From: Candidatus Peregrinibacteria bacterium
GTDB lineage: Bacteria > Patescibacteriota > Gracilibacteria > Peribacterales > Peribacteraceae
NCBI GenBank assembly: GCA_018648865.1
Contig: JABGQH010000004.1
Location: 72,961 to 136,960 of the forward strand
Length of the DNA stretch: 64,000 nucleotides
Reading direction: 5' to 3'
In this document: positions 11,300-39,713 of the stretch, piece after piece
Layout: every line of letters starts with the position of its first letter
How positions within the stretch are numbered: position 1 is the stretch's first letter
The notes under the pieces: model-generated
What the model was told of the DNA's origin: nothing
Database searches by the model: none
The model's input: only the letters and a program-made list of their open reading frames with translations
Made by a program: the position numbers and the translations under genes

Positions 11300-11304
11300 G
11301 TAAG

Positions 11305-27556: not shown

Positions 27557-28072
27557 ATGAGAGAAGTGACATTAACAGACAAAGAAGGCAATAAAATAGG
27601 GCAGGCAGAAATCCTAGAAGCTCACACTGGTGAAGGCATGTTGCATCGCGCATTCTCTATATATGTATTTAGAAATAATAGATCAGAGGTACTCATTCAA
27701 AAAAGGGCTAATACAAAATTATTATTTGCAGGCATTTGGGCAAATACATGTTGCAGTCATCCCTTTATAGATGAAGATGTACTAAACGCAGGAGAAAGAA
27801 GACTTAATGAGGAATGTGGATTTACTGCCCATCTAAAAGTAGAAGGAACTCTTGTTTACAAGGCAGAGGACCCAAATGGGAATGGAGTAGAATATGAACA
27901 TGTAACACTGCTTACTGCTGATCTGAATGGAGATGTTGGATTAGATCCAAACCCAGAAGAGATTGAGGCAATGGAATGGAGAGATGTAAGTAACCTAAAA
28001 GAAGACATGAAAAATAATCAACATGCTTATGCTCCATGGTTTCATTTGGGGCTGAATATAATCTGCAAATAA
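27557..28072 (+). CDS. idi: Isopentenyl-diphosphate delta-isomerase, type 1 (Nudix fold)
   Basis: HRAFSIYVF...LIQKRA..K..FAGIWANTCCSHP and the Nudix-like AGERRLNEECG are typical of IDI-1. Confidence 0.85.
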   Translation: MREVTLTDKEGNKIGQAEILEAHTGEGMLHRAFSIYVFRNNRSEVLIQKRANTKLLFAGIWANTCCSHPFIDEDVLNAGERRLNEECGFTAHLKVEGTLVYKAEDPNGNGVEYEHVTLLTADLNGDVGLDPNPEEIEAMEWRDVSNLKEDMKNNQHAYAPWFHLGLNIICK

Positions 28073-28098
28073 TATTAAATTGTTATACTTTAATTCGT

Positions 28099-28782
28099 AT
28101 GAAGACACCTGATTCCAAATTACATATTGCAATAATCCCAGACGGCAACCGTCGTTGGGCAAAAAAGAGGACACTATCCCCTTGGAAAGGACACGAGAAA
28201 GCAATTCAGAACTTTAAAGAATCATTAGAATGGTGCTATGCACAGCCAGAAATTGGAGTTTTAACAATTTGGTGTTTCTCTACCGAGAACTGGAAGAGGA
28301 GTGAGAAAGAAATCGATAAACTAATGAAAATATTAGAAGAATATCTAATAAATCAAAGAGGAGAATTTATAGAAAAGGGTATACGCATATTGCACTCAGG
28401 CAGAAAAGATAGACTCCCCGCTTCTTTAATAAAAGAGATCTCTAAATTGGAAGAAGAAACAAAAGACAACAAAGAATGCACTCTTAATCTAGCCATAGAT
28501 TATGGAGGAAAAGATGAAATACTTAGAGCAATTAAAAAAAGTGAATCAGATGGAATAGAATCAGAAGATCAATTAAAGAAATATTTAGATCAACCAGATC
28601 TACAAGATCTAGATCTAATAATTCGAACGTCGGGAGAGAACCGAACAAGTAACTTTTTTCTTTGGCAAAGTGCATATGCAGAATGGATGTTTTTACCAAT
28701 TTTGTTTCCTGACTTTGGAGTTAAAGAATTAGAAGAGTGTGTAAATACTTTTAAAAAACGATCTAGAAGATTTGGAAGTTAA
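28099..28782 (+). CDS. uppS: Undecaprenyl-diphosphate synthase (cis-prenyltransferase)
   Basis: HIAIIPDGNRRWAKK, FSTENWKR and IRTSGE.R.SNFLLWQ.AYAE are the UppS signature. Confidence 0.9.
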   Translation: MKTPDSKLHIAIIPDGNRRWAKKRTLSPWKGHEKAIQNFKESLEWCYAQPEIGVLTIWCFSTENWKRSEKEIDKLMKILEEYLINQRGEFIEKGIRILHSGRKDRLPASLIKEISKLEEETKDNKECTLNLAIDYGGKDEILRAIKKSESDGIESEDQLKKYLDQPDLQDLDLIIRTSGENRTSNFFLWQSAYAEWMFLPILFPDFGVKELEECVNTFKKRSRRFGS

Positions 28783-28786
28783 TATA

Positions 28787-29629
28787 ATGAAAACCATTTC
28801 ATCCGCACCGGCAAAAATAATTCTCTCTGGAGAATACGCTGTTGTATTTGGATACCCTGGGATCGCAATTCCTGCAAATTGTGGGATCACAGCCGAATAT
28901 GAGCTAGATTTAGGAAGACCAGATCTGATAATAGAATGGCCAAATTCGAATGCTGGTTGGATAGAATACACAAATGAGATTGTTAATAAGTGTAAGGAAT
29001 ACGAAGACCAGATTTTTGGAACTCTAAAAATAAATTCCACAGCTCCACTTGGTAAAGGAATGGGATCTTCAACAGCTTTGGTAATTGCAATATGCAGAGC
29101 ACTACTTGGCGAAAGCTGTGAGCTGAAAGCAAAAGAAATAGAAGATGCATTAAATATTGGTAACAGTGGTATAGATTTTGCAGTTATCTGGAACAATTCA
29201 GCGATAGAGTTTAGAAAAGGAGAAGAGCCAAAAAAGGTAAAATTAAAAGAAGGAATCTTAAAAAATATGTATTTGATAGATACAGGTAAGCCAGAGCAAG
29301 CGACCCCAGAGCTAGTAGAATGGACTACCTCTAGAAAAGATTCTTTAGAAGAGTCTTTTAAAGTAATAGGGAGGTGCACCGAACGTGTAATAGGAGGAGA
29401 AGATTTAGAAGAAATTATTAAGGACCACAACAAAGCTCAAATAAAACTTGGAGTTGTTCCAAAAAACGTACAAGAACTAATCGAAAGTATCGAAACATCA
29501 GGAGGTTACGCAAAAGTAATTGGAGCAGGAGGAAAAACTGGTGGAGCAGGAATGGTTTTAGTAATCATTGATAATTTTGAAGCGCTTAGCTCAATTATAA
29601 GTAATACTTCTTTTACATTATTTTCTTAA
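28787..29629 (+). CDS. mvk: Mevalonate kinase (GHMP family)
   Basis: APAKIILSGEYAVVFG (compare APGKxILFGEHAVV), GHMP motif PLGKGMGSSTAL, SGID catalytic region, and AKVIGAGGKTGGAG. Confidence 0.8.
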   Translation: MKTISSAPAKIILSGEYAVVFGYPGIAIPANCGITAEYELDLGRPDLIIEWPNSNAGWIEYTNEIVNKCKEYEDQIFGTLKINSTAPLGKGMGSSTALVIAICRALLGESCELKAKEIEDALNIGNSGIDFAVIWNNSAIEFRKGEEPKKVKLKEGILKNMYLIDTGKPEQATPELVEWTTSRKDSLEESFKVIGRCTERVIGGEDLEEIIKDHNKAQIKLGVVPKNVQELIESIETSGGYAKVIGAGGKTGGAGMVLVIIDNFEALSSIISNTSFTLFS

Positions 29630-29635
29630 ATTTGT

Positions 29636-30640
29636 ATGAAAACCGCTATTTCTGCACCAAACAGCGCATGGATTAAGTATTGGGGCAATAGAAACAATGG
29701 CCTTAGGCTGCCTGTTGCAGACTCATTTTCTATGACTTTAGACAGCCCAACTGTAGAGATTGATATAGATCATTCAGAAACACTAACCGTGAAATCTATT
29801 AATTCAGATGGATCTGAGAGAATACTAAAAGAGTCTGAAGTTGGAAGGTTTCAAATAACATTGGATCTAGCGAAGAAATATTTAGAGACACTAGATGTTC
29901 CGGAAGCAATCCCCGCTTCTGTTGCACTTGAAATTAGATCTCATATTCCTGCTGCTGTAGGCCTTGCATCTTCTGCTGCAGTATTTAGTTGTTTTGCTCG
30001 TGCAATCCAAGGGTTAATTGAGGAGACAATCAATCTAACAGACGAACAGACAAGTGTTATAGCTAGGCTAGGGTCTGGCTCTGCTGCTCGTAGTGCTTCT
30101 GGAGGATTTATTGCGCTTAGAGCAGGTGAAGGAGACGAAATAGGCAGTTCTTATGGTGAACAAATGGCAGATGAGAACCATTGGGTGTTGCATGATTTTA
30201 TTCTTGTTCCATCTATGGAAGAGAAAAAAGTTGGTTCAACAAAGGGGCACGCAAGCGCGCAGTCCAGTCCTCATTTTTCGCAAAGAGTGGAAGATATAAT
30301 GGAAAGGAGACAAAAAGAATGTATAGACGCCGTACTTGGTAAAGACTTTGAGAAATTACAGCGAGTAGCAGAGGAAGATTGCGATGACATGCACAGAGTG
30401 ATGCTAACAAGTAATCCACCACTTGATTACCTAACAGATGTTACGCACAGAATAGTAAGAGATATAAAAGCATTTAGAGATAGTGAGCATTTAGAAGTTT
30501 TTTACACAATGGATGCAGGCCCTACAGTGCAGTTATTATGCACAGAAGAGTCTAAAGAGAAGGTTGCAGAGTTTGCTAACAATCAGGAGGATTGCACTAT
30601 ATTTACAGCCAAAACTGGCCCTGGAGCTAGACTAATTTAA
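29636..30640 (+). CDS. mvaD: Diphosphomevalonate decarboxylase family enzyme (substrate, MVAPP or MVAP, not resolvable here)
   Basis: SAPNSAWIKYWGNRN, GLASSAAVF and RLGSGSAARS match the MVD family motifs. Confidence 0.85.
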   Translation: MKTAISAPNSAWIKYWGNRNNGLRLPVADSFSMTLDSPTVEIDIDHSETLTVKSINSDGSERILKESEVGRFQITLDLAKKYLETLDVPEAIPASVALEIRSHIPAAVGLASSAAVFSCFARAIQGLIEETINLTDEQTSVIARLGSGSAARSASGGFIALRAGEGDEIGSSYGEQMADENHWVLHDFILVPSMEEKKVGSTKGHASAQSSPHFSQRVEDIMERRQKECIDAVLGKDFEKLQRVAEEDCDDMHRVMLTSNPPLDYLTDVTHRIVRDIKAFRDSEHLEVFYTMDAGPTVQLLCTEESKEKVAEFANNQEDCTIFTAKTGPGARLI

Positions 30641-30642
30641 CA

Positions 30643-31803
30643 ATGGATTTACGAAATTTACCCGAAGGCCTGTCTGCAAAAGCACGTTGCGATAAGCGAC
30701 GCGAAATGATCGAAGGCGAACTCGAATGTGAACTGAATCTACTTAAAATTAATGAAGATACACTCGGACTTGCAGACGAAAGAAACTGCGAAAACATGTT
30801 TGGGCAAGTTCCAATTCCTGTAGGTCTAGCTGGCCCTTTAAAATTAACTTTAAATTCAACAGAAAACACAGTCGTTCACCTTCCGCTAGCAACTACAGAA
30901 GGTGCACTAGTTGCGAGCGTGAATAGAGGATGCAAAGCACTTACCATGAGTGATAGTGTACGAACGTACTATGAAAGAATTGGAATCTCTCGTTCAATTG
31001 GATTGAATATAAAAAATTCATCAAAAGATATTTATGAATTTATTTGTGATAATGAAGAAGAATTAAAAAAGATTGCGCAGTCCACAAGCTCTCATTTAAA
31101 AGTTCTTTCTTTTGATATAGATAAATCTGGAGACTATTTGTTCCTCACCTTGTACGCAGATACAGATGAAGCAATGGGAATGAATATGATTACAATCGCC
31201 GCACAAAAAGTTGGAGATTGGATATCTGAATCTACTGGATCTGAGCTAGTAACAATTGCTGCCAATGTAGATAGCGATAAGAAGCCAAGCAAAAGAACAC
31301 ACGATAAAGGGCGTGGAATAAGCGCTACAGCTACAGCAGAAATCCCCTCTTCTGTTATTGAGCAGGTCTTTAAAACAACTCCAGAAAAACTACTAAAAGT
31401 CGCAGATGCTAAATTAAATCATGGATCAAAAATTGCTGGAGCAATCGGATCGAATCTACATGTCGCCAATGTTATTGCAGCTCTGTATTTAGCAACAGGG
31501 CAAGATGCTGCACATGTTGTAGAGGGGTCACTAGCAGATACTACTGTAGAGAAGAGTGAAGATGGGATAATTATACAAACAAAACTGCCTGCAATACTTG
31601 TTGGAACTATTGGTGGAGGCACTAGCCTGCCAGCACAAAAACAATGCTTAGATTTGTTACTTAATAATGAATACGGGGTAAAACAGTTCGCACAAATTAT
31701 TGCTGCTGCTGTACTAGCAGGGGAAATTTCTCTACTTGCTGCGCAAGCAACAAACACATTAGCATCAGCCCATAAATCACTTGGTCGAGAGGCTGGAAAG
31801 TAA
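30643..31803 (+). CDS. HMG-CoA reductase, class I (archaeal-size, soluble)
   Basis: Class I motifs ENMFGQVPIPVGLAGPL, TTEGALVASVNRGCKA, DAMGMNM and GTIGGGT. It is 386 aa with no membrane domain. Confidence 0.9.
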   Translation: MDLRNLPEGLSAKARCDKRREMIEGELECELNLLKINEDTLGLADERNCENMFGQVPIPVGLAGPLKLTLNSTENTVVHLPLATTEGALVASVNRGCKALTMSDSVRTYYERIGISRSIGLNIKNSSKDIYEFICDNEEELKKIAQSTSSHLKVLSFDIDKSGDYLFLTLYADTDEAMGMNMITIAAQKVGDWISESTGSELVTIAANVDSDKKPSKRTHDKGRGISATATAEIPSSVIEQVFKTTPEKLLKVADAKLNHGSKIAGAIGSNLHVANVIAALYLATGQDAAHVVEGSLADTTVEKSEDGIIIQTKLPAILVGTIGGGTSLPAQKQCLDLLLNNEYGVKQFAQIIAAAVLAGEISLLAAQATNTLASAHKSLGREAGK

Positions 31804-31850
31804 AGGTTAATTTGCTTAAATTAGACTCTAATTACTGTACAATCTGCTGG

Positions 31851-32873
31851 ATGAATAGATCTGCAATCGTTGGTTTTGGTATGTATATTCCAAATCAGCG
31901 TATACGAACAGCGGATATAGCCGCACACTGGCAACAGGATTCCAAAGCAATAAGTGCAGGGATAGGTGTTAATGAAAAATCTGTACCCTCTTCCTCGGAA
32001 GATGCTTTTACTATGGCGTTTGAGGCAGGAAAGCAGGCAATAGAGACGGCAGATATAGCAAGTACACAAATATCTGCTTGTTATATAGGCTCAGAGAGCC
32101 ATCCTTATGCAGTTAAACCAACAAGTGGAATGGTTGCCGCTGCATTAGAGCTAGATCCATTCTGCTTTTGTGCAGATTTGGAATTTGCCTGCAAAGCAGG
32201 AACAGCAGGTATGCAAATTGTTGATTCAATGGTCAAGAGCAAACAAGTTCGATATGGATTAGCAATTGGTAGTGATACAGCACAATCAGCACCAGGAGAT
32301 GCTTTGGAATACACTGCTGCTGCTGGAGCGGCGGCATTTGTAATTGGTAGCGAGAAAGATGAAAAAGCAATATGCAGAATGGACTACACATTATCTTTTA
32401 CAACAGACACACCAGATTTTTGGAGACCAGCAGAGAAAAAATACCCAAGTCACGCAGGAAGGTTCACAGGCGAACCTTCTTATTTTCGTCATGTCCGTGA
32501 AGCTATAAAAGGAATAATCCAAACAGCAGATTGTTCTGTAGAAGACATTAATCATGTTGTTTTACACATGCCAAATGCAAAGTTCCCTAAAAAAATTGCG
32601 AAGGAGTTTGGATTTACAAAGGAACAGATGGAGCATGGCTTTATAGTGCCAAATATAGGCAATACGTATAGTGCTTGTTCACCTTTAGGACTTGCTCATG
32701 TATTGCAAAAAGCAAAGAAACAAGAAACAATTCTTTTAATATCTTATGGATCTGGTGCTGGATCCGATGCATTCCTATTTACTATGTTAAAAGATGGTTC
32801 AGCTCTGCCACAGGATGAAAGAGAGAAACAATATTTAACTTATGGTGAGTACATGCACTGTCAAACTCAATAA
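31851..32873 (+). CDS. HMG-CoA synthase, archaeal-type (about 340 aa)
   Basis: Thiolase-fold condensing enzyme with GSESHPYAVKP and ACKAGT around the catalytic Cys. Its size matches archaeal HMGS, and it sits between the reductase and thiolase genes. Confidence 0.8.
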   Translation: MNRSAIVGFGMYIPNQRIRTADIAAHWQQDSKAISAGIGVNEKSVPSSSEDAFTMAFEAGKQAIETADIASTQISACYIGSESHPYAVKPTSGMVAAALELDPFCFCADLEFACKAGTAGMQIVDSMVKSKQVRYGLAIGSDTAQSAPGDALEYTAAAGAAAFVIGSEKDEKAICRMDYTLSFTTDTPDFWRPAEKKYPSHAGRFTGEPSYFRHVREAIKGIIQTADCSVEDINHVVLHMPNAKFPKKIAKEFGFTKEQMEHGFIVPNIGNTYSACSPLGLAHVLQKAKKQETILLISYGSGAGSDAFLFTMLKDGSALPQDEREKQYLTYGEYMHCQTQ

Positions 32874-32883
32874 ATTATTTATA

Positions 32884-33993
32884 ATGGAAAAAGCAATCTA
32901 CATAGCAGGCACAGGAATGACCCCATTCGGAGAATGGTGGGACAAAAGTATAAGAGAGTTGATGGATGAAGCTGTAGAAAAGGCACTAGAAAGCGCCGAA
33001 TGCAATGCACTTGATATAGATACAATCATTGTTGCGAACATGCTTGCAGAAAGTACAAGTAACCAAGCACACCTTGGCCCCCTTGCTGCAAATTTGCTTC
33101 CTCATGCACCACCTGCACTTAGGGTGGAATCTGCATGTGCATCTGGAGCAATAGCTATGCACACAGCTTGTGGATTACTAGAAAGTGGACGATCAGAAAC
33201 AATACTAGTTATTGGAGTAGAAAAAATGACAGACATAGCACCGTCTGATATTTCTACTGCCCTTATGGGTGCAGCAGATGCAGAAAAAGATGCTCCATGT
33301 GGACTAACTTTCCCTGGAATATTTGGATTGGTCGCAAGTAGTTACATGAATGAATATGGACTTACCAGAGAAGACTTAAGTCTTGTAAGTTCACGTCACC
33401 ACGCAAATGCTGCTAAGAATCCTTATGCACAATTTAGAAATCAAGTTACACCTGAGAACGTTACAAACAGTACAAAAGTAGCAGATCCACTACGCATGCT
33501 AGATTGCTCACCAATCAGTGATGGAGCTGCAGCATGCATATTATCTACAAAATTTGCATCTTCATTTAGGCTAGCAGCATCTCAAATTGCTACTGATTCT
33601 GTAAGCATTACAGATAGGGCCTCACTAACATCGTTCCCTGCAACAAAGGATGCAATGAGCAAAGCGCTAAAAGAAGCAGAAATAGAAAGAGATGAAATTA
33701 ACCACATAGAAATTCATGATTGCTTTTCTATCGCAGCAGTTATTAATGTAGAGGACTTAGGATTTGCTGAGGCTGGGAAAGGAATAAATGCCTACAAAAA
33801 AGAAAATTCATCTTTAACTATTAATGCTAGCGGCGGATTAAAAGCATGTGGCCATCCAGTTGGAGCAACTGGAGTGAAACAAATTATCGATTCAGTAAAA
33901 CAATTACATACCTCTAAAAAACAATTTGCATTAACACAGAATTTTGGAGGAGCATGTGCAAGTTGTGCAATTCATATAATCGAACAAGTATGA
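32884..33993 (+). CDS. Acetyl-CoA acetyltransferase (archaeal-type thiolase)
   Basis: VESACASGAIA (active-site Cys), HDCFS, and C-terminal GGACASC, in a protein of about 370 aa. Confidence 0.85.
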   Translation: MEKAIYIAGTGMTPFGEWWDKSIRELMDEAVEKALESAECNALDIDTIIVANMLAESTSNQAHLGPLAANLLPHAPPALRVESACASGAIAMHTACGLLESGRSETILVIGVEKMTDIAPSDISTALMGAADAEKDAPCGLTFPGIFGLVASSYMNEYGLTREDLSLVSSRHHANAAKNPYAQFRNQVTPENVTNSTKVADPLRMLDCSPISDGAAACILSTKFASSFRLAASQIATDSVSITDRASLTSFPATKDAMSKALKEAEIERDEINHIEIHDCFSIAAVINVEDLGFAEAGKGINAYKKENSSLTINASGGLKACGHPVGATGVKQIIDSVKQLHTSKKQFALTQNFGGACASCAIHIIEQV

Positions 33994-34919
33994 CCAATCC
34001 CCCAACCCAGCACAGAGCCCAAAAGAAACTACGCAATAACATGCAAGAAGGAACGATTCTTGCCATAACTACTGTTTCTCACCCCCCAGCAGGATTTAAT
34101 AAGGCACCTAGAAACATTGCTCTAATCAAATTAAATAATGGAACACGAGTGCTAGGATGCCTAACTACAATGGATTCGGCAGCTATAGGAAAAACTGTTC
34201 GTCCACGAATGCAATTACAACGTGTCATGGAAACTGGATTAAGAATATATGACGTTTCTTACGAACCAGTATTAATGAAAGAGGTAAAACAAGAGTCACT
34301 TGATCATGTTTTCCCTGGTTACATAATTGCACTAAGCGGACCATCTGGAGTTGGTAAATCTACTGTAAGCTCATTGCTAGTACGCACTGCGTCTGAATAT
34401 GTAGAACGAGTACCTATAATTACGACAAGAAAAGGAATGCAAGGTGATAACGAAGAATACATACATGTAACGAATACTGAGTTTAAAGAAATGTGTGATA
34501 GAGGAGAAGTTGTTGCATGTACCAATATTCCTGATAGAAATGTACAAAGACAATACGGTTATAAGGCTAAAGATATTGAGTCAATATGGACAAAGGGCAA
34601 GATACCTGTCGTAGTAACCGAGGAACATTTACTACAAGGTCTTTCTGACCATTTTGGCAGAAGATCATTACTTTCTTTTGGTCTTTTGCCACCCGGTGAA
34701 AGCAAAAGAGCAATGCTGTCTCAACTGCTACATAGGCTAAGAAAGCGCAATAGAGACACAAAAGAGAGCATAGAAGACCGTATAAAGAATGCAGAAAAAG
34801 ATATTGATTGCTTAAGGGAAAGAAATGATTTATTTGATCACATTCTAGTTAATGAACATTTAGAGTCCGTAATTGATACGCTTGTAGGCCATGTAATGAA
34901 CACAGCAAAGACTAAATAA
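33990..34919 (+). CDS. Fusion protein: DUF35-type OB-fold domain (no Zn ribbon) + divergent guanylate-kinase-like P-loop kinase
   Basis: The N-terminal GTILAITTVSHPPAGFNKAPRNIALIKLNNGTRVLGCL...IGKTVRP fits the DUF35 OB-fold pattern. The C-terminal SGPSGVGKSTV, ITTRKG and QYGY follow the Gmk fold order. It has an ATGA overlap with the thiolase stop. Confidence 0.7.
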   Translation: MTNPPTQHRAQKKLRNNMQEGTILAITTVSHPPAGFNKAPRNIALIKLNNGTRVLGCLTTMDSAAIGKTVRPRMQLQRVMETGLRIYDVSYEPVLMKEVKQESLDHVFPGYIIALSGPSGVGKSTVSSLLVRTASEYVERVPIITTRKGMQGDNEEYIHVTNTEFKEMCDRGEVVACTNIPDRNVQRQYGYKAKDIESIWTKGKIPVVVTEEHLLQGLSDHFGRRSLLSFGLLPPGESKRAMLSQLLHRLRKRNRDTKESIEDRIKNAEKDIDCLRERNDLFDHILVNEHLESVIDTLVGHVMNTAKTK

Positions 34920-34963: not shown

Positions 34964-34992
34964 TTCTCAAAAGAGCGTTTTTTTGGTATAAT
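34964..34992 (+). promoter_or_regulatory. Candidate extended -10 promoter of the glycogen gene cluster
   Basis: TGGTATAAT at 34984-34992, with a weak -35 (TTCTCA) 17 nt upstream of the TATAAT hexamer. The ATG is at 35020. Confidence 0.35.
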
Positions 34993-35019: not shown

Positions 35020-36240
35020 ATGTCAGTACATTCACTCATGTTCGGCTGGGAGTATCCTCCAATCCATTTGGGTGGCTTGGGAGTTGCATGCCAAGGGCTT
35101 GTAAATGGACTTCTTAGACATAATGTAAAAGTTACATTGGTACTTCCTCATCCAAATCCGAGTTCACAGGAAGGGCTAGATATACTGACTCCAACAGAAG
35201 ATGAACTAAAACGAATTATTGTAAGAAGCCAATTACATCCATACGATTCAGTTCAGAAATACGAAGAACGAATCCAGCTCATTTCTAAAAGTGGAAAAAC
35301 AGAAAAGATTTACGGGGATGACCTTGGACAAGAGATTGAAAATTTTACAGCTATGAGCGTTGAACTAACAAAAGATGTACAGCCAGATTTAGTTCATTGT
35401 CATGACTGGATGACATATGAAGCTGGGGCAAGAAGTGCTGCCTATCACAATAAGCCACTAGTTGCGCATATACATGCTACTGAACTAGATAGAACACACT
35501 TCCAACCAGATGAATGGATATATAAAAAGGAGCAAAGAGGATTTAATAAAGCAGACCAAATTGTTGCTGTTAGCAATTACACAAAAAGCATACTAGTTAA
35601 ACACTATGGGATTTCTTCTGACAAAATTCAGGTAGTGCACAATGGAAATGCAAAGGTACAGATGCAAAGAGAATCTATAATTAAATCTGTACATGGGCAA
35701 AAGCCTGCTCCAATGGTTTTATTTTTAGGTCGTATGACAGTGCAAAAAGGCCCTGTTCAGTTCCTAAATATGGCAGCGGAAATACATAAATCAAGACCAG
35801 ATGTTCAATTTGTACTAGCAGGAGACGGAAACATGCTAGGTGAATTAATACACAGAGCACATGATTTAAATCTACAAGAAAATATAATATTTGCTGGAAA
35901 AGTAAGTAACTCAGAAGCACAAAAACTCTTTGCTAAAGCAGATTGTTTTGTAATGCCTTCTGTATCTGAGCCATTTGGATTAGTAGCTCTAGAAGCTCTA
36001 GCTCAGGGCACACCTGTAGTACTCTCTAAGCAATCAGGTGCATCAGAAGTAGTACACAACGCATTCAAAGTAGACTTCTGGGATACATCTAAGATGGCTG
36101 ATTGTGTGCTAACTATATTGCGAGAAGACGCATTAGTAAGACAAATACGATCAGAGGCTCCAAATATTCTTCAAAAATTGACGTGGGAAAACCAAGCAAG
36201 GGAAATTAGATCCCTATATAACAAAGTTATAAATTTTTAA
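35020..36240 (+). CDS. Glycogen synthase-like glycosyltransferase (GT-B fold, archaeal GlgA-like)
   Basis: The N-terminal FGWEYPPIHLGGLGVACQGL resembles the K/E-x-GGL motif of glycogen synthases. The C-terminal PSVSEPFGLVALEALAQGTPVV supports the call, as does co-location with the GH57 and GH15 genes. Confidence 0.7.
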   Translation: MSVHSLMFGWEYPPIHLGGLGVACQGLVNGLLRHNVKVTLVLPHPNPSSQEGLDILTPTEDELKRIIVRSQLHPYDSVQKYEERIQLISKSGKTEKIYGDDLGQEIENFTAMSVELTKDVQPDLVHCHDWMTYEAGARSAAYHNKPLVAHIHATELDRTHFQPDEWIYKKEQRGFNKADQIVAVSNYTKSILVKHYGISSDKIQVVHNGNAKVQMQRESIIKSVHGQKPAPMVLFLGRMTVQKGPVQFLNMAAEIHKSRPDVQFVLAGDGNMLGELIHRAHDLNLQENIIFAGKVSNSEAQKLFAKADCFVMPSVSEPFGLVALEALAQGTPVVLSKQSGASEVVHNAFKVDFWDTSKMADCVLTILREDALVRQIRSEAPNILQKLTWENQAREIRSLYNKVINF

Positions 36241-36274
36241 TTTTTATAAAACTAAAAATACACAAAAATAAAAT

Positions 36275-37651
36275 ATGAACACAAACCCAAATATCTGTTT
36301 ATACTTCCAAGTTCACCAGCCATACAGACTGCGTGACCTAAGATACAATGAAATTGGAGGAGGTACTGAATATTTTGACGAACAGAAAAACAAAGAGATA
36401 TTTAGAAAAGTAGCCGAGAAGTGTTATTTACCAGCAAATAAATTAATGCTTGATCTACTAAACGAGCATGAAGATTTTAGAATCTCATACTCGATCTCTG
36501 GAGTATTTTTGGATCAATGTGAAGAATATGGACAAGACGTGCTTGAATCTTTTCAGGCATTAGCAAAAACAGGAAAAGTAGAATTTATGGCAGAAACGTA
36601 TTACCACTCACTAAGTGCTATACACTCATTGCCAGAGTTCTGTGAGCAAGTTTCTATGCATGCGAATAAGATACAAGAGCTATTTGGTTCGTATCCAAGG
36701 ATATTTAGAAACACAGAACTAATATTTAGTAATGAGATTGCTCATATAGTCCGTATGATGGGTTTTAGAGGAATTCTCGCAGAAGGAGCTGACCACATAC
36801 TGCAAGGCAGATTACCAAATGATCCATATATTCCACCTAATTTTCATCTTCCAGAAAGTGAATATTGGAACGTAATTAAAGAAAAGTTCCCAGATAGTGT
36901 CCCAGATAAAAACATTTATGTTCTGTTAAAAAATTATCGTTTATCAGACGATGTAGCATTTAGGTTCTCGGATAAATCATGGATGGGGTTCCCACTAACT
37001 ACGGAAAGATTTACAGATTGGATTTTGCAAAATCATGGACACAGCATAAATCTGTTTATGGATTATGAAACATTTGGAGAACACCAATGGGCAGAGACAG
37101 GAATATTTAATTTTTTGAAAAAGATGCCAGATGAATGGAATAAGAGAAGTATTAAAACACTCACGCCATCACAGATTATTGATGAATGGGAAAATCGTAT
37201 TGGTGTTGTAGTCGAAAATGACAAGAAAGAGCACAAAGAAGACGTTAAGAAAATAGTTCAAGTGCTTAAGTCTCTGTGGGAAAGACCAAAAACTACAGAT
37301 AGCCCAATGGAGAAATTTTCAGTAGAAAAACAATACAACGCCCATTGCCCCGTTTCTTGGGCAGATACAGAAAGAGATATTTCTGCTTGGGAAGGTAATG
37401 AAATTCAAAAAGCTGCAATAGAAATGTTGTACTCCCTAGAAGATAAAGTTAAACAAAGTAAAGATCCACACATGGTAGAAACGTGGCGAAAATTACAAAC
37501 ATCAGATCACTTTTACTACATGTGTACAAAGTATTGGAGTGATGGAGACGTACATAAATACTTCAGTCCTTATGATTCACCATACGAAGCATATAGACGG
37601 TTCTCTCATGCATTACAGGACCTACAATTACAATCCGAAAACACCAATTAA
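36275..37651 (+). CDS. Glycoside hydrolase family 57 (alpha-amylase / alpha-glucanotransferase type)
   Basis: The N-terminal ICLYFQVHQPYRL is the typical GH57 region 1. The later block WADTE supports the call. Confidence 0.75.
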   Translation: MNTNPNICLYFQVHQPYRLRDLRYNEIGGGTEYFDEQKNKEIFRKVAEKCYLPANKLMLDLLNEHEDFRISYSISGVFLDQCEEYGQDVLESFQALAKTGKVEFMAETYYHSLSAIHSLPEFCEQVSMHANKIQELFGSYPRIFRNTELIFSNEIAHIVRMMGFRGILAEGADHILQGRLPNDPYIPPNFHLPESEYWNVIKEKFPDSVPDKNIYVLLKNYRLSDDVAFRFSDKSWMGFPLTTERFTDWILQNHGHSINLFMDYETFGEHQWAETGIFNFLKKMPDEWNKRSIKTLTPSQIIDEWENRIGVVVENDKKEHKEDVKKIVQVLKSLWERPKTTDSPMEKFSVEKQYNAHCPVSWADTERDISAWEGNEIQKAAIEMLYSLEDKVKQSKDPHMVETWRKLQTSDHFYYMCTKYWSDGDVHKYFSPYDSPYEAYRRFSHALQDLQLQSENTN

Positions 37652-37670
37652 TTACTAAATTATTAACTCT

Positions 37671-39713
37671 ATGCCAAGATCTCTAATCATTGGAAACGGC
37701 TCTACCCTAGCTACATTTGACGACAATGCGCAGATGCGCGATCTATACTATCCATATGTAGGGATGGAAGACCACACAAAATATGGAGACGTACACAGAG
37801 TTGGCGTTTGGGTAGAAGACATAGGATTTTCTTGGTTTAGCGATCCAGAATGGGAATGTACATTAAACTACAGACCAGAAACATTGGTTACTCATTCATT
37901 ATTACGTAATGAAAAACTGGGGCTAGTAATAACATCCGAAGATTATGTGCATCCTGTAAAAAATATTCTAGTTAGGAATTTCCGCGTAGTTAGTACAGAC
38001 GGAAAAGATAAGAATGTTAAGTTCTTTTTTAACCATGATTTTCACATTTACGGAGACAAACAAAAGGACACCGCTTTCTTTGAGCCATACACAAATTCTG
38101 TTATTCACTATAGGCAAAGACGATATTTCTTGGTTGGAGGGAATACATCAAATCCATACGAACAGAAGGATGATCCAGAAATAAGTGAATTCCAATCCAT
38201 GATTAATTGTGAAAAAAGAAACAACCATTTTGGGATTAATTCATACAGTATAGGAAAATCAGAATACCAAGGGAAAGAAGGAACATGGAAAGATGCAGAA
38301 GACGGAGAGCTATCAATGACAACAATTGATCAAGGTTCCGTTGATTCCACAGTAGGAATTTTCTGTTCTGTATCCCCTAATAAGGAATCAGAAATAAATA
38401 TGTGGGTATGTCTTGGAAAATCGCTAGAGGAAGTAGTTGATCTACAAAATTTCATTCAAGATGAAACACCTGAAAATGCAAAAAGGAATTGTCACAATTA
38501 TTGGAAAAGCTGGGTAAACAAATCCGACAATAATTTTGGGACCCTAGATAAAAAGATCATAGATTTATATAAAAGGAGTCTGCTTACCATCCGTATGCAT
38601 GCAGACAATAATGGAGGGATAGTTGCCGCAGCAGATGCAGATATTATGGCTTTTAACAAAGATACATACACATATGTATGGCCAAGAGATGGAGCATTTG
38701 TTTCTTTGGCCCTAGATAAAGCAGGCTACATGGAAGTAACCAGAAGGTTCTTTGAATTCTGTGTAAAAACACAAAGCGAAGAAGGTTATATGCTTCACAA
38801 ATTCAATCCAGATGGATCATATGGGTCTTCTTGGCACCCATGGTTTAATAACAATTCATCACAATTACCAATTCAAGAAGATGAAACCGCATTAGTTCTT
38901 TATGCTATGTGGAAACATTTTGAGCATGTTAAAGATTTTGAATTTATTCAATACATGTACGAAAATTTTGTAAAGAAAGCAGCAGAATTCTTATATATTT
39001 ATACAGAAGAAGATACTGGGCTACCATTGCCTAGTTATGACCCATGGGAAGAGCACAGAGGTGTATTTACATACACAACAGCTTGCACAATAGCGGGGCT
39101 ACATGCTGCTTCAAAAATGTGTCATATCCTTGGGCACTACAATCATGAAGAAAAATATCAAGATGCAGCAGATAAAATGAAACAAGCTCTGCTTTTCCAT
39201 TTATTTGATGAGGAGAAAGGAAGATTTGTAAAAAAGATTGATAGAGAAAATGGGAAAACTACAAATACTGATTACACAATAGATGCCAGTGTAACTACTG
39301 TGTGGAAATTAGGAATTCTGTCACCAGAAGATCCACGATCTGTTTCTACAATGAATCAATTAGTAGATTCACTAACAGTAAATACTCCAATAGGAGGAAT
39401 TGCTAGATACACAGATGATTACTATCACTCAGTTACAGAGCCAACAAATGATATACCAGGAAATCCATGGATAATTACTACTCTTTGGAAGGCCCAATGG
39501 AATATTTCACGCGCAAAAGATATTAATGATCTTAAGCCAGCAAAAGAAATACTTAGCTGGGTTGAATCACATGCAACTAAATCTGGAATGTTGCCAGAGC
39601 AATTAAATCCATTCACAGGTCAGCATCTATCTGTTTCCCCTCTTACTTGGAGCCACGCAACATTCGTAGAAACAGTGATTGATTTCTTAGAAAAAGAGAA
39701 GGAGCTAAGTTAA
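37671..39713 (+). CDS. Glycoside hydrolase family 15 (glucoamylase-like) with N-terminal beta-sandwich domain
   Basis: The N-terminus LIIGNGSTLATFDDNAQMRDLYYPYVG and the catalytic-domain blocks YVWPRDGAF, LPIQEDETA, PSYDPWEE and LPEQL are typical of archaeal/bacterial GH15. Confidence 0.85.
   Translation: MPRSLIIGNGSTLATFDDNAQMRDLYYPYVGMEDHTKYGDVHRVGVWVEDIGFSWFSDPEWECTLNYRPETLVTHSLLRNEKLGLVITSEDYVHPVKNILVRNFRVVSTDGKDKNVKFFFNHDFHIYGDKQKDTAFFEPYTNSVIHYRQRRYFLVGGNTSNPYEQKDDPEISEFQSMINCEKRNNHFGINSYSIGKSEYQGKEGTWKDAEDGELSMTTIDQGSVDSTVGIFCSVSPNKESEINMWVCLGKSLEEVVDLQNFIQDETPENAKRNCHNYWKSWVNKSDNNFGTLDKKIIDLYKRSLLTIRMHADNNGGIVAAADADIMAFNKDTYTYVWPRDGAFVSLALDKAGYMEVTRRFFEFCVKTQSEEGYMLHKFNPDGSYGSSWHPWFNNNSSQLPIQEDETALVLYAMWKHFEHVKDFEFIQYMYENFVKKAAEFLYIYTEEDTGLPLPSYDPWEEHRGVFTYTTACTIAGLHAASKMCHILGHYNHEEKYQDAADKMKQALLFHLFDEEKGRFVKKIDRENGKTTNTDYTIDASVTTVWKLGILSPEDPRSVSTMNQLVDSLTVNTPIGGIARYTDDYYHSVTEPTNDIPGNPWIITTLWKAQWNISRAKDINDLKPAKEILSWVESHATKSGMLPEQLNPFTGQHLSVSPLTWSHATFVETVIDFLEKEKELS

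What the first reader, a model, noticed from the sequence alone, without database searches (positions are those of the whole stretch)
33990..34919. DUF35 scaffold domain fused to a divergent guanylate-kinase-like kinase at the end of a mevalonate operon that has no recognisable second kinase
Seen in sequence:
- Eight co-directional genes run from 27557 to 34919 with very small gaps or overlaps: idi, uppS, a single GHMP kinase (mevalonate-kinase motifs), an MVD-family decarboxylase, class I HMGR, HMGS and thiolase, then this 309-aa ORF, whose ATG overlaps the thiolase TGA (ATGA).
- Its first ~95 aa fit the OB-fold half of DUF35 but lack the Zn-ribbon cysteines.
- The remaining ~200 aa follow the guanylate kinase order (GPSGVGKST P-loop, TTR, ...YG...).
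- Positions that bind GMP in canonical Gmk look replaced. TTRxPRxGE becomes TTRKGMQGD, the Glu of the F-x-E motif is missing, and YGT becomes YGY.

Established knowledge:
- In archaea, DUF35 scaffolds the thiolase/HMGS complex.
- Every known mevalonate route needs a second phosphorylation, either by phosphomevalonate kinase (GHMP fold) or by isopentenyl-phosphate kinase (amino-acid-kinase fold).
- Animals use a non-orthologous P-loop NMP-kinase-fold phosphomevalonate kinase.

Inference: the fused P-loop kinase may be the missing phosphomevalonate or isopentenyl-phosphate kinase, physically tethered to the pathway's entry complex. I do not recognise such an arrangement as described.
Basis: partly seen in the sequence, partly recalled or inferred. 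Interest (0 to 1): 0.85.

Follow-up and report, generated by a model that had tools for sequence, protein, structure and literature searches.

The report
Scaffold-fused kinase completing a mevalonate pathway
In a group of tiny uncultured bacteria (Peregrinibacteria), the last gene of the mevalonate operon joins a scaffold domain to a remodelled guanylate-kinase-like enzyme that has lost its guanine-binding residues, and it is the best candidate for the pathway's missing last kinase, most likely a new type of isopentenyl-phosphate kinase.

Summary
ORF 33990..34919 (309 aa) overlaps the thiolase stop (ATGA). It encodes a DUF35-type OB fold without the zinc ribbon, a linker, and a guanylate-kinase (GK) fold.

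- **Conservation.** The fusion family is conserved in Peregrinibacteria and always closes the operon idi-uppS-MVK-decarboxylase-HMGR-HMGS-thiolase.
- **Kinase site.** The ATP site is intact. The residues invariant in 77 canonical Gmk are replaced: Ser to Ile143, Glu to Ala176, Thr to Tyr191. There are also two family-specific insertions.
- **Related complete genome.** Ca. Peribacter riflensis has the same operon and a separate 200-aa gmk. Its annotation table lists no phosphomevalonate kinase and no amino-acid-kinase-type IPK.
- **The decarboxylase.** The operon's "MVD" is of the phosphomevalonate-decarboxylase (PMD) type. Its best solved relative is Anaerolinea PMD, and it carries the Asn/Arg/His specificity residues. 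So the missing step is most likely isopentenyl phosphate to IPP.
- **Stand-alone relatives.** Stand-alone copies of the kinase sit beside uppS or idi in other uncultured bacteria.

No description of such an enzyme was found. The function is inferred and not assayed. I rate it a new variant of a known kind, with fairly high interest.

The parts
27557..28072 (+). idi, type 1 isopentenyl-diphosphate isomerase (first gene of the operon)
   Evidence: NUDIX domain; NF002995 scores 143 bits against a cut-off of 127.
28036..28782 (+). uppS, cis-prenyltransferase (undecaprenyl-diphosphate synthase). The true start is probably the ATG at 28099.
   Evidence: PF01255 239.5 bits; TIGR00055 217 bits against a cut-off of 110. 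The profile alignment starts near residue 25-34.
28772..29629 (+). Mevalonate kinase, the only GHMP kinase in the operon. The probable start is the ATG at 28787.
   Evidence: GHMP_kinases_N. The best NCBIfam match is TIGR00549 mevalonate kinase (84 bits, below its cut-off). The phosphomevalonate kinase model scores only 16 bits.
29636..30640 (+). MVD-family decarboxylase, predicted to be a phosphomevalonate decarboxylase (PMD) that makes isopentenyl phosphate
   Evidence: - The best solved relative is 6N0X/6N0Y, Anaerolinea thermophila PMD (164.8 bits). The best true DMD scores 133 bits. The identity of 6N0X comes from PMC9254496.
- Specificity residues are Asn18, Arg24 and His205, where DMDs have Lys, Ile (Asn in some) and Met.
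- The same residues occur in 110/110 and 116/117 family members.
30643..31803 (+). Class I (NADPH-type) HMG-CoA reductase
   Evidence: PF00368 326 bits. TIGR00533 scores 301 bits against 59 bits for the class II model.
31812..32873 (+). Archaeal-type HMG-CoA synthase. The probable start is the ATG at 31851.
   Evidence: NF003274 434 bits (cut-off 244); TIGR00748 HMG_CoA_syn_Arc 388 bits (cut-off 353).
32842..33993 (+). Archaeal-type acetoacetyl-CoA thiolase. The probable start is the ATG at 32884.
   Evidence: PRK06064 388 bits; NF053570 AcCoTHIOL_METTL 338 bits; Thiolase_N and Thiolase_C domains.
33990..34271 (+). Fusion protein, residues 1-94: a conserved N-terminal helix followed by a DUF35-type OB fold with no zinc ribbon. 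Predicted to dock on the thiolase/HMGS pair.
   Evidence: - PF01796 32 bits.
- The family profile's best solved match is 6ESQ_E 'Pfam DUF35', E = 5e-8. Only its OB part (residues 49-112) aligns.
- AF2 predicts helix 5-17 and five strands, with pLDDT of 90 or more.
- There is no Cys before residue 57.
34272..34316 (+). Fusion protein, residues 95-109: variable linker
   Evidence: Lowest pLDDT in the model (66-77). This is the length-variable, unconserved region of alignment A1.
34317..34919 (+). Fusion protein, residues 110-309 plus the stop codon: a guanylate-kinase-fold P-loop kinase with a remodelled phosphate-acceptor site. The P-loop GPSGVGKST lies at 34338-34364. Predicted isopentenyl-phosphate kinase.
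   Evidence: - PF00625 52 bits. TIGR03263 scores 82 bits against a cut-off of 160.
- Foldseek top hits are all Gmk, with TM-scores normalised to the target up to 0.87.
- Site statistics against 77 canonical Gmk.
- The family separates from Gmk by HMMER score: at least 173 bits for the family, about 90 bits or less for single-domain Gmk-length proteins.
34964..34992 (+). Promoter-like site (TTCTCA, 17-nt spacer, TATAAT with TG) in the 100-nt gap after the fusion gene. It marks the end of the operon and the start of the glycogen-type gene cluster.
   Evidence: Consensus scan, 10 of 12 matches. This is a consensus match only.

Best explanation
The 309-aa protein has two jobs.

First, its N-terminal OB fold is a zinc-ribbon-less version of the DUF35 subunit that holds archaeal-type thiolase and HMG-CoA synthase together. 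It docks the protein on that entry complex.

Second, its C-terminal domain is a catalytically competent P-loop kinase derived from guanylate kinase. The ATP site and lid are intact. The guanine pocket has been rebuilt into a smaller, more hydrophobic acceptor site (Ile143, Ala176, Tyr191, Leu214, Leu215), with new conserved charged residues (Glu185, Arg187, Arg240).

The domain keeps the GK chemistry, which is transfer of the ATP gamma-phosphate onto a phosphomonoester. It applies this to isopentenyl phosphate, giving IPP.

The operon then encodes a complete Chloroflexi/haloarchaea-style route:
- acetyl-CoA to HMG-CoA to mevalonate;
- mevalonate to mevalonate-5-P (MVK);
- mevalonate-5-P to isopentenyl phosphate (PMD-type decarboxylase);
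- isopentenyl phosphate to IPP (GK-fold kinase);
- IPP to DMAPP (IDI), and on to undecaprenyl-PP (UppS).

Shown here: the domain identities, conservation, synteny, remodelled site, PMD-type residues, and absence of other annotated kinases in a related complete genome. Inferred: the substrate, the activity, and the complex formation.
For: 1. Domains. OB_ChsH2_C plus Guanylate_kin. The AF2 model has a mean pLDDT of 91.5. Foldseek's top hits are all guanylate kinases. The OB profile's best solved match is 6ESQ_E, the DUF35 chain of the archaeal thiolase/HMGS complex.

2. Catalytic competence. P-loop GPSGVGK[ST]T, TTR147, Tyr157, Tyr189 and lid Arg249, Arg253 and Arg264 are invariant in all 48 fusions and match canonical Gmk.

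3. Not a Gmk.
- Ser to Ile143, Glu to Ala176, Thr to Tyr191 and Gly to Leu214, at positions that are 72-77 of 77 conserved in canonical Gmk.
- The equivalog score is 82 bits against a cut-off of 160.
- The Peribacter riflensis genome has a separate 200-aa gmk.

4. A pathway hole.
- The published analysis of the complete Peribacter genomes calls the pathway 'near-complete' and lists no step from mevalonate-5P to mevalonate-5PP.
- The uncut gene table has no K00938, K13273 or K06981.
- The window has no other GHMP, amino-acid-kinase or GK gene.

5. The decarboxylase is PMD-type.
- Its best solved relative is AthPMD 6N0X at 164.8 bits, against 133 bits for the best DMD.
- It has Asn18 and His205. 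These are exactly the two positions at which the 6N0Z sequence differs from 6N0X in the printed alignments (Asn to Lys, His to Met). From memory, 6N0Z is the specificity-engineered variant; I could not check this.
- It has Arg24 at the position where Dellas et al. place the MPD-specific Arg.
- The signature is universal in the family: N 110/110, R 110/110, H 116/117, including Peribacter riflensis.

6. Synteny. The fusion follows thiolase in the window, Peribacter, L003, L081/L082 and L083.

7. Stand-alone homologues. They share the same remodelled site and lie beside isoprenoid genes, with no MVK or decarboxylase next to them:
- idi-uppS-kinase (L086);
- uppS-HisPhos-kinase (L085);
- uppS divergently adjacent (L088/L089);
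- uppS-polyprenyl synthase-HisPhos-kinase.
This mirrors the IPK-IDI synteny reported for CPR bacteria (PMC6107057).

8. Weak support. A distant stand-alone clade member lies 8 kb from another PMD-type decarboxylase in a 71% GC bacterium.
Against: - No activity data exist.
- Automatic annotation calls the decarboxylase a diphosphomevalonate decarboxylase: TIGR01240 scores 172 bits, just above its cut-off of 171; KEGG assigns K01597; NCBI and JGI use the same name.
- The new conserved Arg187, Glu185 and Thr178 could equally bind the carboxylate and hydroxyl of mevalonate-5-phosphate.
- Position 150 (Arg41 of yeast Gmk, a phosphate ligand; recalled) is Lys in most members but Met in this protein.
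- Tethering the last kinase to the first two enzymes has no obvious kinetic logic.
- Three minority clusters of the fusion (P0124, P0125, P0129) have degenerate kinase motifs yet still follow HMGS-thiolase. So the domain can be kept without catalysis.
- Peribacter has a lone 265-aa 'proB' (amino-acid-kinase fold, below its KO threshold, with no proA or proC in the table). It was not excluded as a cryptic IPK.
- Several stand-alone homologues lie in cell-envelope glycan clusters (WecG, Epimerase_2, Wzy_C). One lies in a gammaproteobacterial symbiont with no isoprenoid genes nearby.
- The genome of the window's own organism beyond these 64 kb was not seen.
Confidence: 0.55

Rival explanations
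1. The GK-fold domain is a phosphomevalonate kinase (mevalonate-5-P to mevalonate-5-PP). The decarboxylase, despite its PMD-like residues, works on the diphosphate. This would be the classical route with a non-orthologous PMK, as in animals.
For: - The decarboxylase passes the TIGR01240 diphosphomevalonate decarboxylase cut-off (172 bits against 171), and KEGG, NCBI and JGI name it so.
- Hoshino and Gaucher describe CPR bacteria as having the bacterial/eukaryotic route.
- The new conserved Arg187, Glu185 and Thr178 in the acceptor site could bind a carboxylate and a hydroxyl.
- Animals provide a precedent for a P-loop PMK (established knowledge).
Against: - The decarboxylase's best solved relative is a proven PMD. 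It has Asn/Arg/His where DMDs have Lys/Ile/Met, universally in the family.
- Stand-alone homologues sit beside idi and uppS with no MVK or decarboxylase next to them. A PMK would be useless there.
- The pocket changes are mainly towards hydrophobic residues (Ile143, Ala176, Tyr191, Leu214, Leu215).
Confidence: 0.15
2. The kinase acts on some other phosphomonoester unrelated to the C5 step. Candidates are a longer prenyl phosphate or a sugar or lipid-carrier intermediate of envelope glycan synthesis. Under this view its place in the operon reflects use of the product rather than completion of the pathway.
For: - Stand-alone homologues lie in clusters with WecG, UDP-GlcNAc 2-epimerase, Wzy_C and histidine phosphatases.
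- uppS, the lipid-carrier synthase, is the commonest neighbour.
- One copy sits in a gammaproteobacterial symbiont with no isoprenoid genes nearby.
Against: - The fusion is joined to the DUF35 scaffold of the pathway's entry complex. It sits in an operon that lacks exactly one kinase, and the related complete genome has no annotated alternative.
- In L086 the neighbours are idi and uppS, which use C5 units.
Confidence: 0.12
3. The GK-like domain is not a pathway enzyme. It is a structural or regulatory module, like the inactive GK domains of MAGUK proteins. It would replace the lost zinc ribbon or sense a nucleotide or metabolite to control the thiolase/HMGS complex.
For: - Minority fusion clusters (P0124, P0125, P0129) have lost the P-loop Lys, the TTR motif or lid arginines, yet keep the domain after HMGS-thiolase.
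- The zinc ribbon of canonical DUF35 is missing.
Against: - In all 48 aligned fusion sequences, and nearly all of the 8 stand-alone copies, the P-loop, TTR, both Tyr and the lid Arg are strictly invariant. That conservation is typical of catalysis.
- Stand-alone copies exist without any scaffold domain.
Confidence: 0.08
4. It is simply a guanylate kinase (housekeeping or second copy) that happens to be fused to DUF35.
For: JGI and KEGG annotate family members as guanylate kinase: K00942 at 103.7 bits against a threshold of 60. The fold and the order of motifs are those of Gmk.
Against: - The positions invariant in canonical Gmk are all replaced: Glu 77/77, Thr 77/77, Ser 72/77.
- The NCBIfam equivalog score is half the cut-off.
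- A separate canonical gmk exists in Peribacter.
Confidence: 0.03

Closest known systems
Guanylate kinase (Gmk, EC 2.7.4.8; PF00625, TIGR03263)
   Same: Same fold (Foldseek TM-score normalised to the target up to 0.87). Same P-loop, TTR motif, two phosphate-binding tyrosines and lid arginines. Same chemistry is expected: ATP gamma-phosphate onto a phosphomonoester.
   Different: The guanine-recognising Ser, Glu and Thr are replaced by Ile, Ala and Tyr. There are two family-specific insertions of 4 and 6 residues. The score is half the equivalog cut-off. The domain is fused to an OB fold, and a separate true gmk exists in a related genome.
[quoted passage not shown]
   Same: It is the best solved match of the N-terminal profile (E = 5e-8). 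The gene lies directly after archaeal-type thiolase and HMGS.
   Different: [quoted passage not shown] It carries a 200-aa kinase at its C-terminus. The host is bacterial (CPR).
Isopentenyl phosphate kinase (IPK; amino-acid-kinase fold, PF00696, K06981) of archaea, Chloroflexi and some CPR bacteria
   Same: Same predicted reaction and same place in the pathway (after MVK and PMD). The same kind of synteny with idi is seen for the stand-alone homologues.
   Different: The fold is unrelated: P-loop NMP-kinase-like rather than amino-acid kinase. This would be a non-orthologous replacement.
Animal phosphomevalonate kinase (PF04275, NMP-kinase-like P-loop fold)
   Same: It is a precedent for a P-loop nucleotide-kinase-like enzyme recruited to phosphorylate a phosphomonoester of the mevalonate pathway in place of a GHMP enzyme.
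   Different: There is no Pfam match to PF04275. It is a different branch of P-loop kinases with a different predicted substrate, and it is not fused to a scaffold.
PhnN ribose 1,5-bisphosphate phosphokinase (TIGR02322), a GK-family enzyme acting on a non-nucleotide
   Same: It shows that the GK scaffold can turn a non-nucleotide phosphomonoester into a diphosphate. There is a weak profile match (27.6 bits).
   Different: The relationship is only distant. The substrate and genomic context differ.
Chloroflexi/haloarchaeal ('alternative') mevalonate pathway: MVK, PMD, IPK (Dellas et al. 2013; VanNice et al. 2014)
   Same: Same predicted order of reactions. The decarboxylase here is closest to the Chloroflexi PMD and shares its specificity residues.
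   Different: The last enzyme is of a different fold and is fused to the DUF35 scaffold. The early enzymes are the archaeal-type thiolase/HMGS pair.

Membership tests
Guanylate kinase (Gmk, TIGR03263 / PF00625) | GK three-part fold (core, NMP-binding and lid) | tested here: met
   AF2 model with mean pLDDT 91.5. Foldseek's top 50 hits are all Gmk, with TM-scores normalised to the target up to 0.87.
Guanylate kinase (Gmk, TIGR03263 / PF00625) | ATP site: P-loop GxxGxGK[ST] and lid arginines | tested here: met
   GPSGVGKST. Arg249, Arg253 and Arg264 align with arginines conserved in 75-76 of 77 canonical Gmk.
Guanylate kinase (Gmk, TIGR03263 / PF00625) | Score at or above the curated equivalog cut-off | tested here: not met
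   TIGR03263 scores 81.9 bits against a cut-off of 160.45. The other gmk models score 44-46 bits against cut-offs of 263-318.
Guanylate kinase (Gmk, TIGR03263 / PF00625) | Guanine-recognising residues. The roles of yeast Ser34, Glu69 and Ser/Thr80 are recalled from the 1GKY literature; their conservation was measured here. | tested here: not met
   Canonical Gmk have Ser 72/77, Glu 77/77 and Thr 77/77. The family has Ile 48/48, Ala 44/48 and Tyr 48/48.
Guanylate kinase (Gmk, TIGR03263 / PF00625) | Is the organism's only gmk | tested here: inconclusive
   Not met in the complete genome of the relative Ca. Peribacter riflensis, where a separate 200-aa gmk is gene _213. The window's own genome is not available beyond 64 kb, and there is no second GK gene in the window.
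DUF35 scaffold of thiolase/HMGS complexes (PF01796 with zinc ribbon PF12172) | C-terminal OB fold of the DUF35 type | tested here: met
   PF01796 scores 32.1 bits against a cut-off of 27.1. The profile's best solved match is 6ESQ_E, E = 5e-8.
DUF35 scaffold of thiolase/HMGS complexes (PF01796 with zinc ribbon PF12172) | [quoted passage not shown] | tested here: not met
   No Cys in residues 1-56. Only residues 49-112 of 6ESQ_E align. The canonical architecture is described in PMC12960953.
DUF35 scaffold of thiolase/HMGS complexes (PF01796 with zinc ribbon PF12172) | Encoded next to archaeal-type thiolase and HMGS | tested here: met
   The window, Peribacter, L003, L081-L083, L084, L092 and L093.
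DUF35 scaffold of thiolase/HMGS complexes (PF01796 with zinc ribbon PF12172) | Forms a physical complex with thiolase and HMGS | not testable with these tools
   Needs co-purification or a multimer structure prediction.
Isopentenyl phosphate kinase (amino-acid-kinase family, PF00696 / K06981) | Amino-acid-kinase fold or sequence family | tested here: not met
   No PF00696 hit at E up to 0.01; the fold is GK. The protein can only be a functional analogue, not a member.
Isopentenyl phosphate kinase (amino-acid-kinase family, PF00696 / K06981) | Pathway context: MVK plus a PMD-type decarboxylase and no phosphomevalonate kinase | tested here: met
   PMD-type residues and best solved match. No PMK in the operon or window, or in the Peribacter genome table.
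Isopentenyl phosphate kinase (amino-acid-kinase family, PF00696 / K06981) | ATP-dependent phosphorylation of isopentenyl phosphate | not testable with these tools
   Needs an enzyme assay.
Animal-type phosphomevalonate kinase (PF04275) | Sequence family membership | tested here: not met
   PF04275 is not among the Pfam hits at E up to 0.01.
GHMP phosphomevalonate kinase (TIGR01220 / K00938) | GHMP fold | tested here: not met
   The fusion has no GHMP domain. The operon's only GHMP kinase scores 16 bits on TIGR01220 against 84 bits on the mevalonate kinase model.
Phosphomevalonate decarboxylase (for the neighbouring gene 29636..30640) | Non-Lys at the position of S. epidermidis Lys21, Arg at the position of Ile27, and His instead of Met after the GSxxG motif | tested here: met
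   Asn18, Arg24 and His205, identical to AthPMD 6N0X. The 6N0Z sequence has Lys and Met at the two positions, and DMDs (5GMD, 3F0N) have Lys and Met.

The most novel reading that the evidence does not exclude
The GK-fold domain is the founding member of a third, unrelated solution for making IPP from isopentenyl phosphate: a P-loop 'isoprenyl-phosphate kinase' family. It defines a Peregrinibacteria-type mevalonate pathway (MVK, PMD, GK-fold IPK). There the last enzyme is physically mounted, through a zinc-ribbon-less DUF35 domain, on the thiolase/HMGS channelling complex. Its stand-alone relatives beside idi and uppS would be the isoprenoid-precursor salvage kinase of other genome-reduced bacteria.
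Probability: 0.45. Interest if true: 0.85.

Novelty: new variant of a known kind. Interest (0 to 1): 0.72.

Why it matters
The mevalonate pathway has been a model for non-orthologous enzyme replacement: GHMP against P-loop phosphomevalonate kinase, DMD against PMD, and the archaeal dehydratase route. The analysis of complete Peribacteria genomes left one step unassigned ('near-complete' pathway).

- **A new enzyme family for a known reaction.** If the GK-fold domain is the missing kinase, it closes that gap and adds a new family for isopentenyl-phosphate kinase.
- **Annotation.** The decarboxylases of this phylum, now named diphosphomevalonate decarboxylase, would need re-annotation as phosphomevalonate decarboxylases.
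- **Evolution.** It links the CPR pathway to the Chloroflexi/haloarchaeal variant. This bears on the debate about the origin of the pathway and the position of the CPR bacteria.
- **Engineering.** A small P-loop IP kinase, and a natural fusion of a pathway enzyme to the thiolase/HMGS scaffold, would interest isoprenoid pathway engineers.

The claim is directly testable with one recombinant protein and commercially available substrates.

Tried and rejected
- **Genome-contig scan with the family alignment.** The tool chose the P-loop peptide as a pattern. These 77 gmk loci were reused as the canonical comparison set.
- **Metagenome-contig scan with the distant stand-alone clade, alignment A3.** Only four weak partial matches were returned. 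Nothing usable.
- **A compensating kinase beside the degenerate fusions.** I looked for a conventional IPK or PMK next to P0124, P0125 and P0129. The contigs are too short or the operon is split, so there is no answer.
- **Foldseek of the whole model.** It returned only GK chains. The OB domain was not searched as a separate model, and a sequence-profile search against PDB was used instead.
- **Papers not held.** Thomas et al. 2019 (PMD engineering) and Vögeli et al. 2018 (DUF35 complex) are not in the library. Their content is used only through PDB sequences, through citing papers, or as recalled knowledge.
- **Literature searches for a prior description.** I searched phosphomevalonate kinase or IPK together with guanylate kinase, DUF35 or CPR. 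No description of this fusion or of a GK-fold IPK was found.
- **Rejected: housekeeping gmk.** The site residues are replaced and a separate gmk exists in Peribacter.
- **Rejected: chance ORF or mis-called start.** Homologues align from the ATG at 33990.
- **The lone 'proB' of Peribacter.** I considered it as a cryptic IPK. It is judged unlikely, since it matches the glutamate-5-kinase KO at E = 3e-52 and not K06981, but it is not excluded.

Full report
**What is there.** The window (36.5% GC) carries eight co-directional, tightly packed genes from 27557 to 34919. Pfam and NCBIfam identify them as follows:
- type 1 IPP isomerase;
- UppS;
- one GHMP kinase whose best match is mevalonate kinase;
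- an MVD-family decarboxylase;
- class I HMG-CoA reductase;
- archaeal-type HMG-CoA synthase (above two curated cut-offs);
- archaeal-type thiolase;
- the 309-aa ORF 33990..34919.

The ATG of the last ORF overlaps the thiolase TGA. A promoter-like site in the 100-nt gap downstream (34964..34992) precedes a glycogen-type gene cluster, so the fusion gene closes the operon.

**The protein.** Residues 19-74 match the DUF35 OB-fold model PF01796 above its cut-off. Residues 113-298 match Guanylate_kin. The curated gmk equivalog model scores only 82 bits against a cut-off of 160.

The AlphaFold model built on a 48-sequence alignment is confident (mean pLDDT 91.5). It shows an N-terminal helix, a five-stranded OB domain, a lower-confidence linker (residues ~95-109) and a GK-like alpha/beta domain. 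Foldseek against the PDB returns only guanylate kinases, with TM-scores normalised to the target up to 0.87 against GMP-bound forms.

A profile of the N-terminal 98 residues finds, as its best solved match, chain E of 6ESQ/6ET9, deposited as 'Pfam DUF35' (E = 5e-8). From my own knowledge this is the scaffold subunit of the Methanothermococcus thermolithotrophicus thiolase/HMGS complex; that paper is not held. Only the OB part of that chain (residues 49-112) aligns. [quoted passage not shown] Here there is no cysteine before residue 57.

**A conserved family.** The protein search finds 480 relatives. The best 120 are about 290-330 aa and 50-65% identical, and nearly all show the same two domains. 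Where they carry a name, most are from Candidatus Peregrinibacteria or Peribacteraceae (CPR/Patescibacteria). Sources call them 'hypothetical', 'OB-fold domain-containing protein' or 'guanylate kinase'. The window itself is syntenic with Ca. Peribacter riflensis well outside the operon, in the run ruvB-L11-L1-dus-permease-clpC-S1.

In the exhaustive HMMER search of 1.84 billion representatives, the family stands apart. Fusion clusters score 277-502 bits, stand-alone relatives 173-286 bits, and ordinary single-domain Gmk-length proteins about 90 bits or less. A few long multi-domain proteins with ordinary GK repeats score up to about 150 bits.

**The kinase site.** I aligned 48 fusions, 8 stand-alone relatives and 77 canonical gmk genes recovered from the genome scan.

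| Feature | Canonical Gmk (n = 77) | Fusion family (n = 48) |
|---|---|---|
| P-loop GPSGVGK[ST]T | present | identical |
| TTR motif | present | identical |
| Two phosphate-binding Tyr (157, 189) | present | identical |
| Lid arginines (249, 253, 264) | 75-76 of 77 | identical |
| Position 143 | Ser 72/77 | Ile 48/48 |
| Position 176 | Glu 77/77 | Ala 44/48 |
| Position 191 | Thr 77/77 | Tyr 48/48 |
| Position 214 | Gly 76/77 | Leu 48/48 |
| Position 150 | Arg 63/77 | mostly Lys; Met in this protein |

The family also has a 4-residue insertion carrying Glu185 (46/48) and Arg187 (48/48), and a 6-residue insertion carrying Arg240 (48/48). The stand-alone relatives share these changes.

From recalled structural literature on yeast and mouse Gmk, the replaced Ser, Glu and Thr are the guanine-recognising residues. 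Whatever their role, the family has kept the phosphoryl-transfer machinery and rebuilt the acceptor pocket, largely with hydrophobic side chains.

**Is a kinase really missing?** The published analysis of five complete Peribacteria genomes lists genes that form mevalonate and mevalonate-5-P, and genes that convert mevalonate-5-PP to IPP and DMAPP. It calls the pathway 'near-complete' (PMC4736985). Its full gene table was stored without truncation and shows:
- the same operon, genes _635-_643, ending in a 312-aa 'gmk' (K00942, 103.7 bits);
- a separate canonical 200-aa gmk, gene _213 (157.7 bits);
- no K00938, K13273 or K06981.

The only amino-acid-kinase-fold genes in the table are pyrH and a 'proB'. 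In the window, no other ORF of 150 aa or more has a GK, GHMP or amino-acid-kinase domain.

**Which step?** The decisive new observation concerns the neighbouring decarboxylase.
- Its best solved relative is 6N0X/6N0Y (164.8 bits). The best true diphosphomevalonate decarboxylase scores 133 bits.
- 6N0X is the Anaerolinea thermophila phosphomevalonate decarboxylase with bound mevalonate-5-phosphate (PMC9254496).
- The window protein reads IKYWGN18RNNGLR24LP and GSTKGH205. AthPMD reads IKYWGNRDAVLRIP and GSTQGH.
- In the printed alignments, the 6N0Z sequence differs from 6N0X at exactly two positions, Asn to Lys and His to Met. The DMDs of Saccharolobus and mouse have Lys and Met there. From memory, 6N0Z is the variant from the engineering study of Thomas et al. 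2019. PMC9254496 says that study changed PMD specificity towards DMD by mutagenesis. I could not read the paper itself.
- Dellas et al. list Lys21 and Ile27 as MDD-type residues. They list a non-Lys residue and Arg as MPD-type, with the Arg clashing with the second phosphate (PMC3857490, Table 4).
- The Asn/Arg/His signature is present in the decarboxylases of L002, L081 and L083. Among the closest homologues it occurs in 110/110, 110/110 and 116/117 sequences, including Ca. Peribacter riflensis.

These enzymes are therefore predicted to make isopentenyl phosphate. The missing enzyme is then an isopentenyl-phosphate kinase, as in Chloroflexi and haloarchaea. This fits the recent placement of CPR bacteria next to Chloroflexota, as noted in PMC11052028.

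**Independent context evidence.** Stand-alone relatives of about 200 aa, with no OB domain and the same remodelled site, lie in these contexts:
- idi-uppS-kinase, with overlapping genes (L086);
- uppS-histidine phosphatase-kinase (L085);
- divergently adjacent to uppS (L088/L089);
- uppS-polyprenyl synthase-histidine phosphatase-kinase;
- histidine phosphatase x2-kinase, in the syntenic envelope cluster (L087);
- once with no isoprenoid genes nearby, in contigs assigned to the gammaproteobacterial symbiont Ca. Kentron.

None of these has MVK or a decarboxylase next to it. A phosphomevalonate kinase would make no sense there. A kinase that makes IPP for IDI and UppS would. It also parallels the IPK-IDI synteny described for CPR bacteria that lack most mevalonate genes (PMC6107057).

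A more distant stand-alone clade member lies 8 kb from another PMD-type decarboxylase (Cys/Thr/His signature; best solved match 6N0X at 195 bits) in a 71% GC bacterium. I count this as weak support only.

**How it most likely works.** The OB domain docks on the thiolase/HMGS pair in place of a canonical DUF35. The evidence is homology to 6ESQ_E, invariable gene order and translational coupling. The flexible linker carries a GK-fold kinase that transfers the ATP gamma-phosphate onto the phosphate of isopentenyl phosphate. This completes the route MVK to PMD to kinase to IDI to UppS. The domain identities, conservation, site remodelling, PMD-type residues and absence of annotated alternatives are shown. 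The substrate, the activity and the complex are inferred. I put about 0.7 on 'this is the missing pathway kinase' and 0.55 on the specific IP-kinase-plus-scaffold model.

**Caveats.**
- Automatic models and all public names call the decarboxylase a DMD.
- The new Arg187, Glu185 and Thr178 could suit mevalonate-5-phosphate.
- Three minority fusion clusters have degenerate kinase motifs (P-loop Lys to Arg, TTR lost, lid Arg lost) but keep their place after HMGS-thiolase. So the domain can persist without catalysis, and those lineages must use another kinase.
- Some stand-alone copies sit in envelope-glycan clusters.
- The lone Peribacter 'proB' was not excluded.
- Only 64 kb of this organism's genome was seen.

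**Comparison with what is known.** The domain works like a guanylate kinase chemically but fails the membership tests for Gmk: the cut-off, the base-recognition residues, and being the sole gmk. It is predicted to work like IPK but has an unrelated fold. It parallels the animal P-loop phosphomevalonate kinase and the GK-family enzyme PhnN as cases of nucleotide-kinase folds acting on non-nucleotide phosphomonoesters, but it belongs to neither family. The OB half is a DUF35 relative that fails the zinc-ribbon criterion.

Full-text searches found no description of this fusion or of a GK-fold IPK. The library does not cover most subscription journals, so absence is not proof.

**Verdict.** This is a real, conserved and previously unassigned protein family with a specific, testable predicted function that would close a documented pathway gap. 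It is a new variant of a known kind: a non-orthologous enzyme replacement plus a new domain fusion in the mevalonate pathway. Interest 0.72.

Noticed in passing
window 29636..30640; proteins P0361-P0480: All closest homologues of the operon's decarboxylase (Peregrinibacteria, including Ca. Peribacter riflensis) are publicly named 'diphosphomevalonate decarboxylase'. They nevertheless carry the phosphomevalonate-decarboxylase signature: Asn and Arg in 110/110, His in 116/117. The names are probably wrong.
   Followed up: yes
L086 2035-2643; L085 5597-6187; L087 3345-3929; L088 10001-10708: Stand-alone relatives of the kinase domain (about 200 aa, no OB domain) occur in other uncultured bacteria. 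They sit next to uppS, idi and polyprenyl synthase. A histidine-phosphatase-family gene often overlaps their start. They lie within clusters holding WecG, UDP-GlcNAc 2-epimerase and Wzy_C. The role of the phosphatase partner is unexplained.
   Followed up: partly
L084 2400-3311 (P0129); L092 4064-4951 (P0125); L093 3247-4140 (P0124): Minority versions of the fusion have degenerate kinase motifs: P-loop Lys to Arg, TTR lost, and lid arginines lost. They still follow HMGS-thiolase. Which kinase serves these lineages could not be seen because the contigs are short.
   Followed up: partly
L003 5954-6355: In this more divergent Peribacteria genome the operon runs idi-uppS-MVK-HMGR-HMGS-thiolase-fusion. 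There is only a 400-bp gap where the decarboxylase gene lies in the others, so the decarboxylase must be elsewhere or absent.
   Followed up: no
L090/L091 10001-10675 (P0356; cluster of P0128): A stand-alone copy very close to the fusion's kinase domain (286 bits) lies on contigs assigned to Candidatus Kentron, a gammaproteobacterial ciliate symbiont. It sits between type II secretion genes and purH or mlaA. This may be horizontal transfer, or a different use of the enzyme.
   Followed up: no
L095 952-2001 and 10001-10648: In a 71% GC bacterium, a distant stand-alone GK-like protein (P0151) lies 8 kb from a PMD-type decarboxylase (best solved match 6N0X, 195 bits). An FMN_dh-family gene lies at the contig edge and may be a type 2 IDI.
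   Followed up: partly
Ca. Peribacter riflensis gene table (PMC4736985, supplement 2), gene _735: There is a lone 265-aa amino-acid-kinase-fold gene annotated proB. It scores below its KO threshold (174 against 219), and no proA or proC is listed in the table. Its function is unclear. It is the only conceivable conventional-fold alternative for the missing kinase.
   Followed up: partly
window 35020..39713: Directly downstream lies a glycogen-type cluster: a GT5/GT4 glycogen-synthase-like gene, a GH57 gene and a GH15 glucoamylase-like gene. The same cluster follows the fusion gene in L081, so the neighbourhood is conserved beyond the operon.
   Followed up: partly
window 10838..12105 and 54354..57047: Type IV secretion-like genes are present: a PrgI-family gene followed by an unassigned ORF, and a VirD4/TrwB-like coupling ATPase. 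They match the TraC/VirB4-like genes listed at the syntenic place in Peribacter riflensis.
   Followed up: no
window 28036, 28772, 31812, 32842: The longest-ORF starts of uppS, MVK, HMGS and thiolase are probably too far upstream. Profile alignments begin 14-30 residues in. Internal ATGs at 28099, 28787, 31851 and 32884 give short gaps between genes instead of the 11-37-nt overlaps.
   Followed up: partly
Ca. Peribacter riflensis gene table, gene _638: In Peribacter a HAD-superfamily IIA phosphatase (NagD-like) is inserted on the opposite strand between MVK and the decarboxylase. The window has no counterpart there.
   Followed up: no
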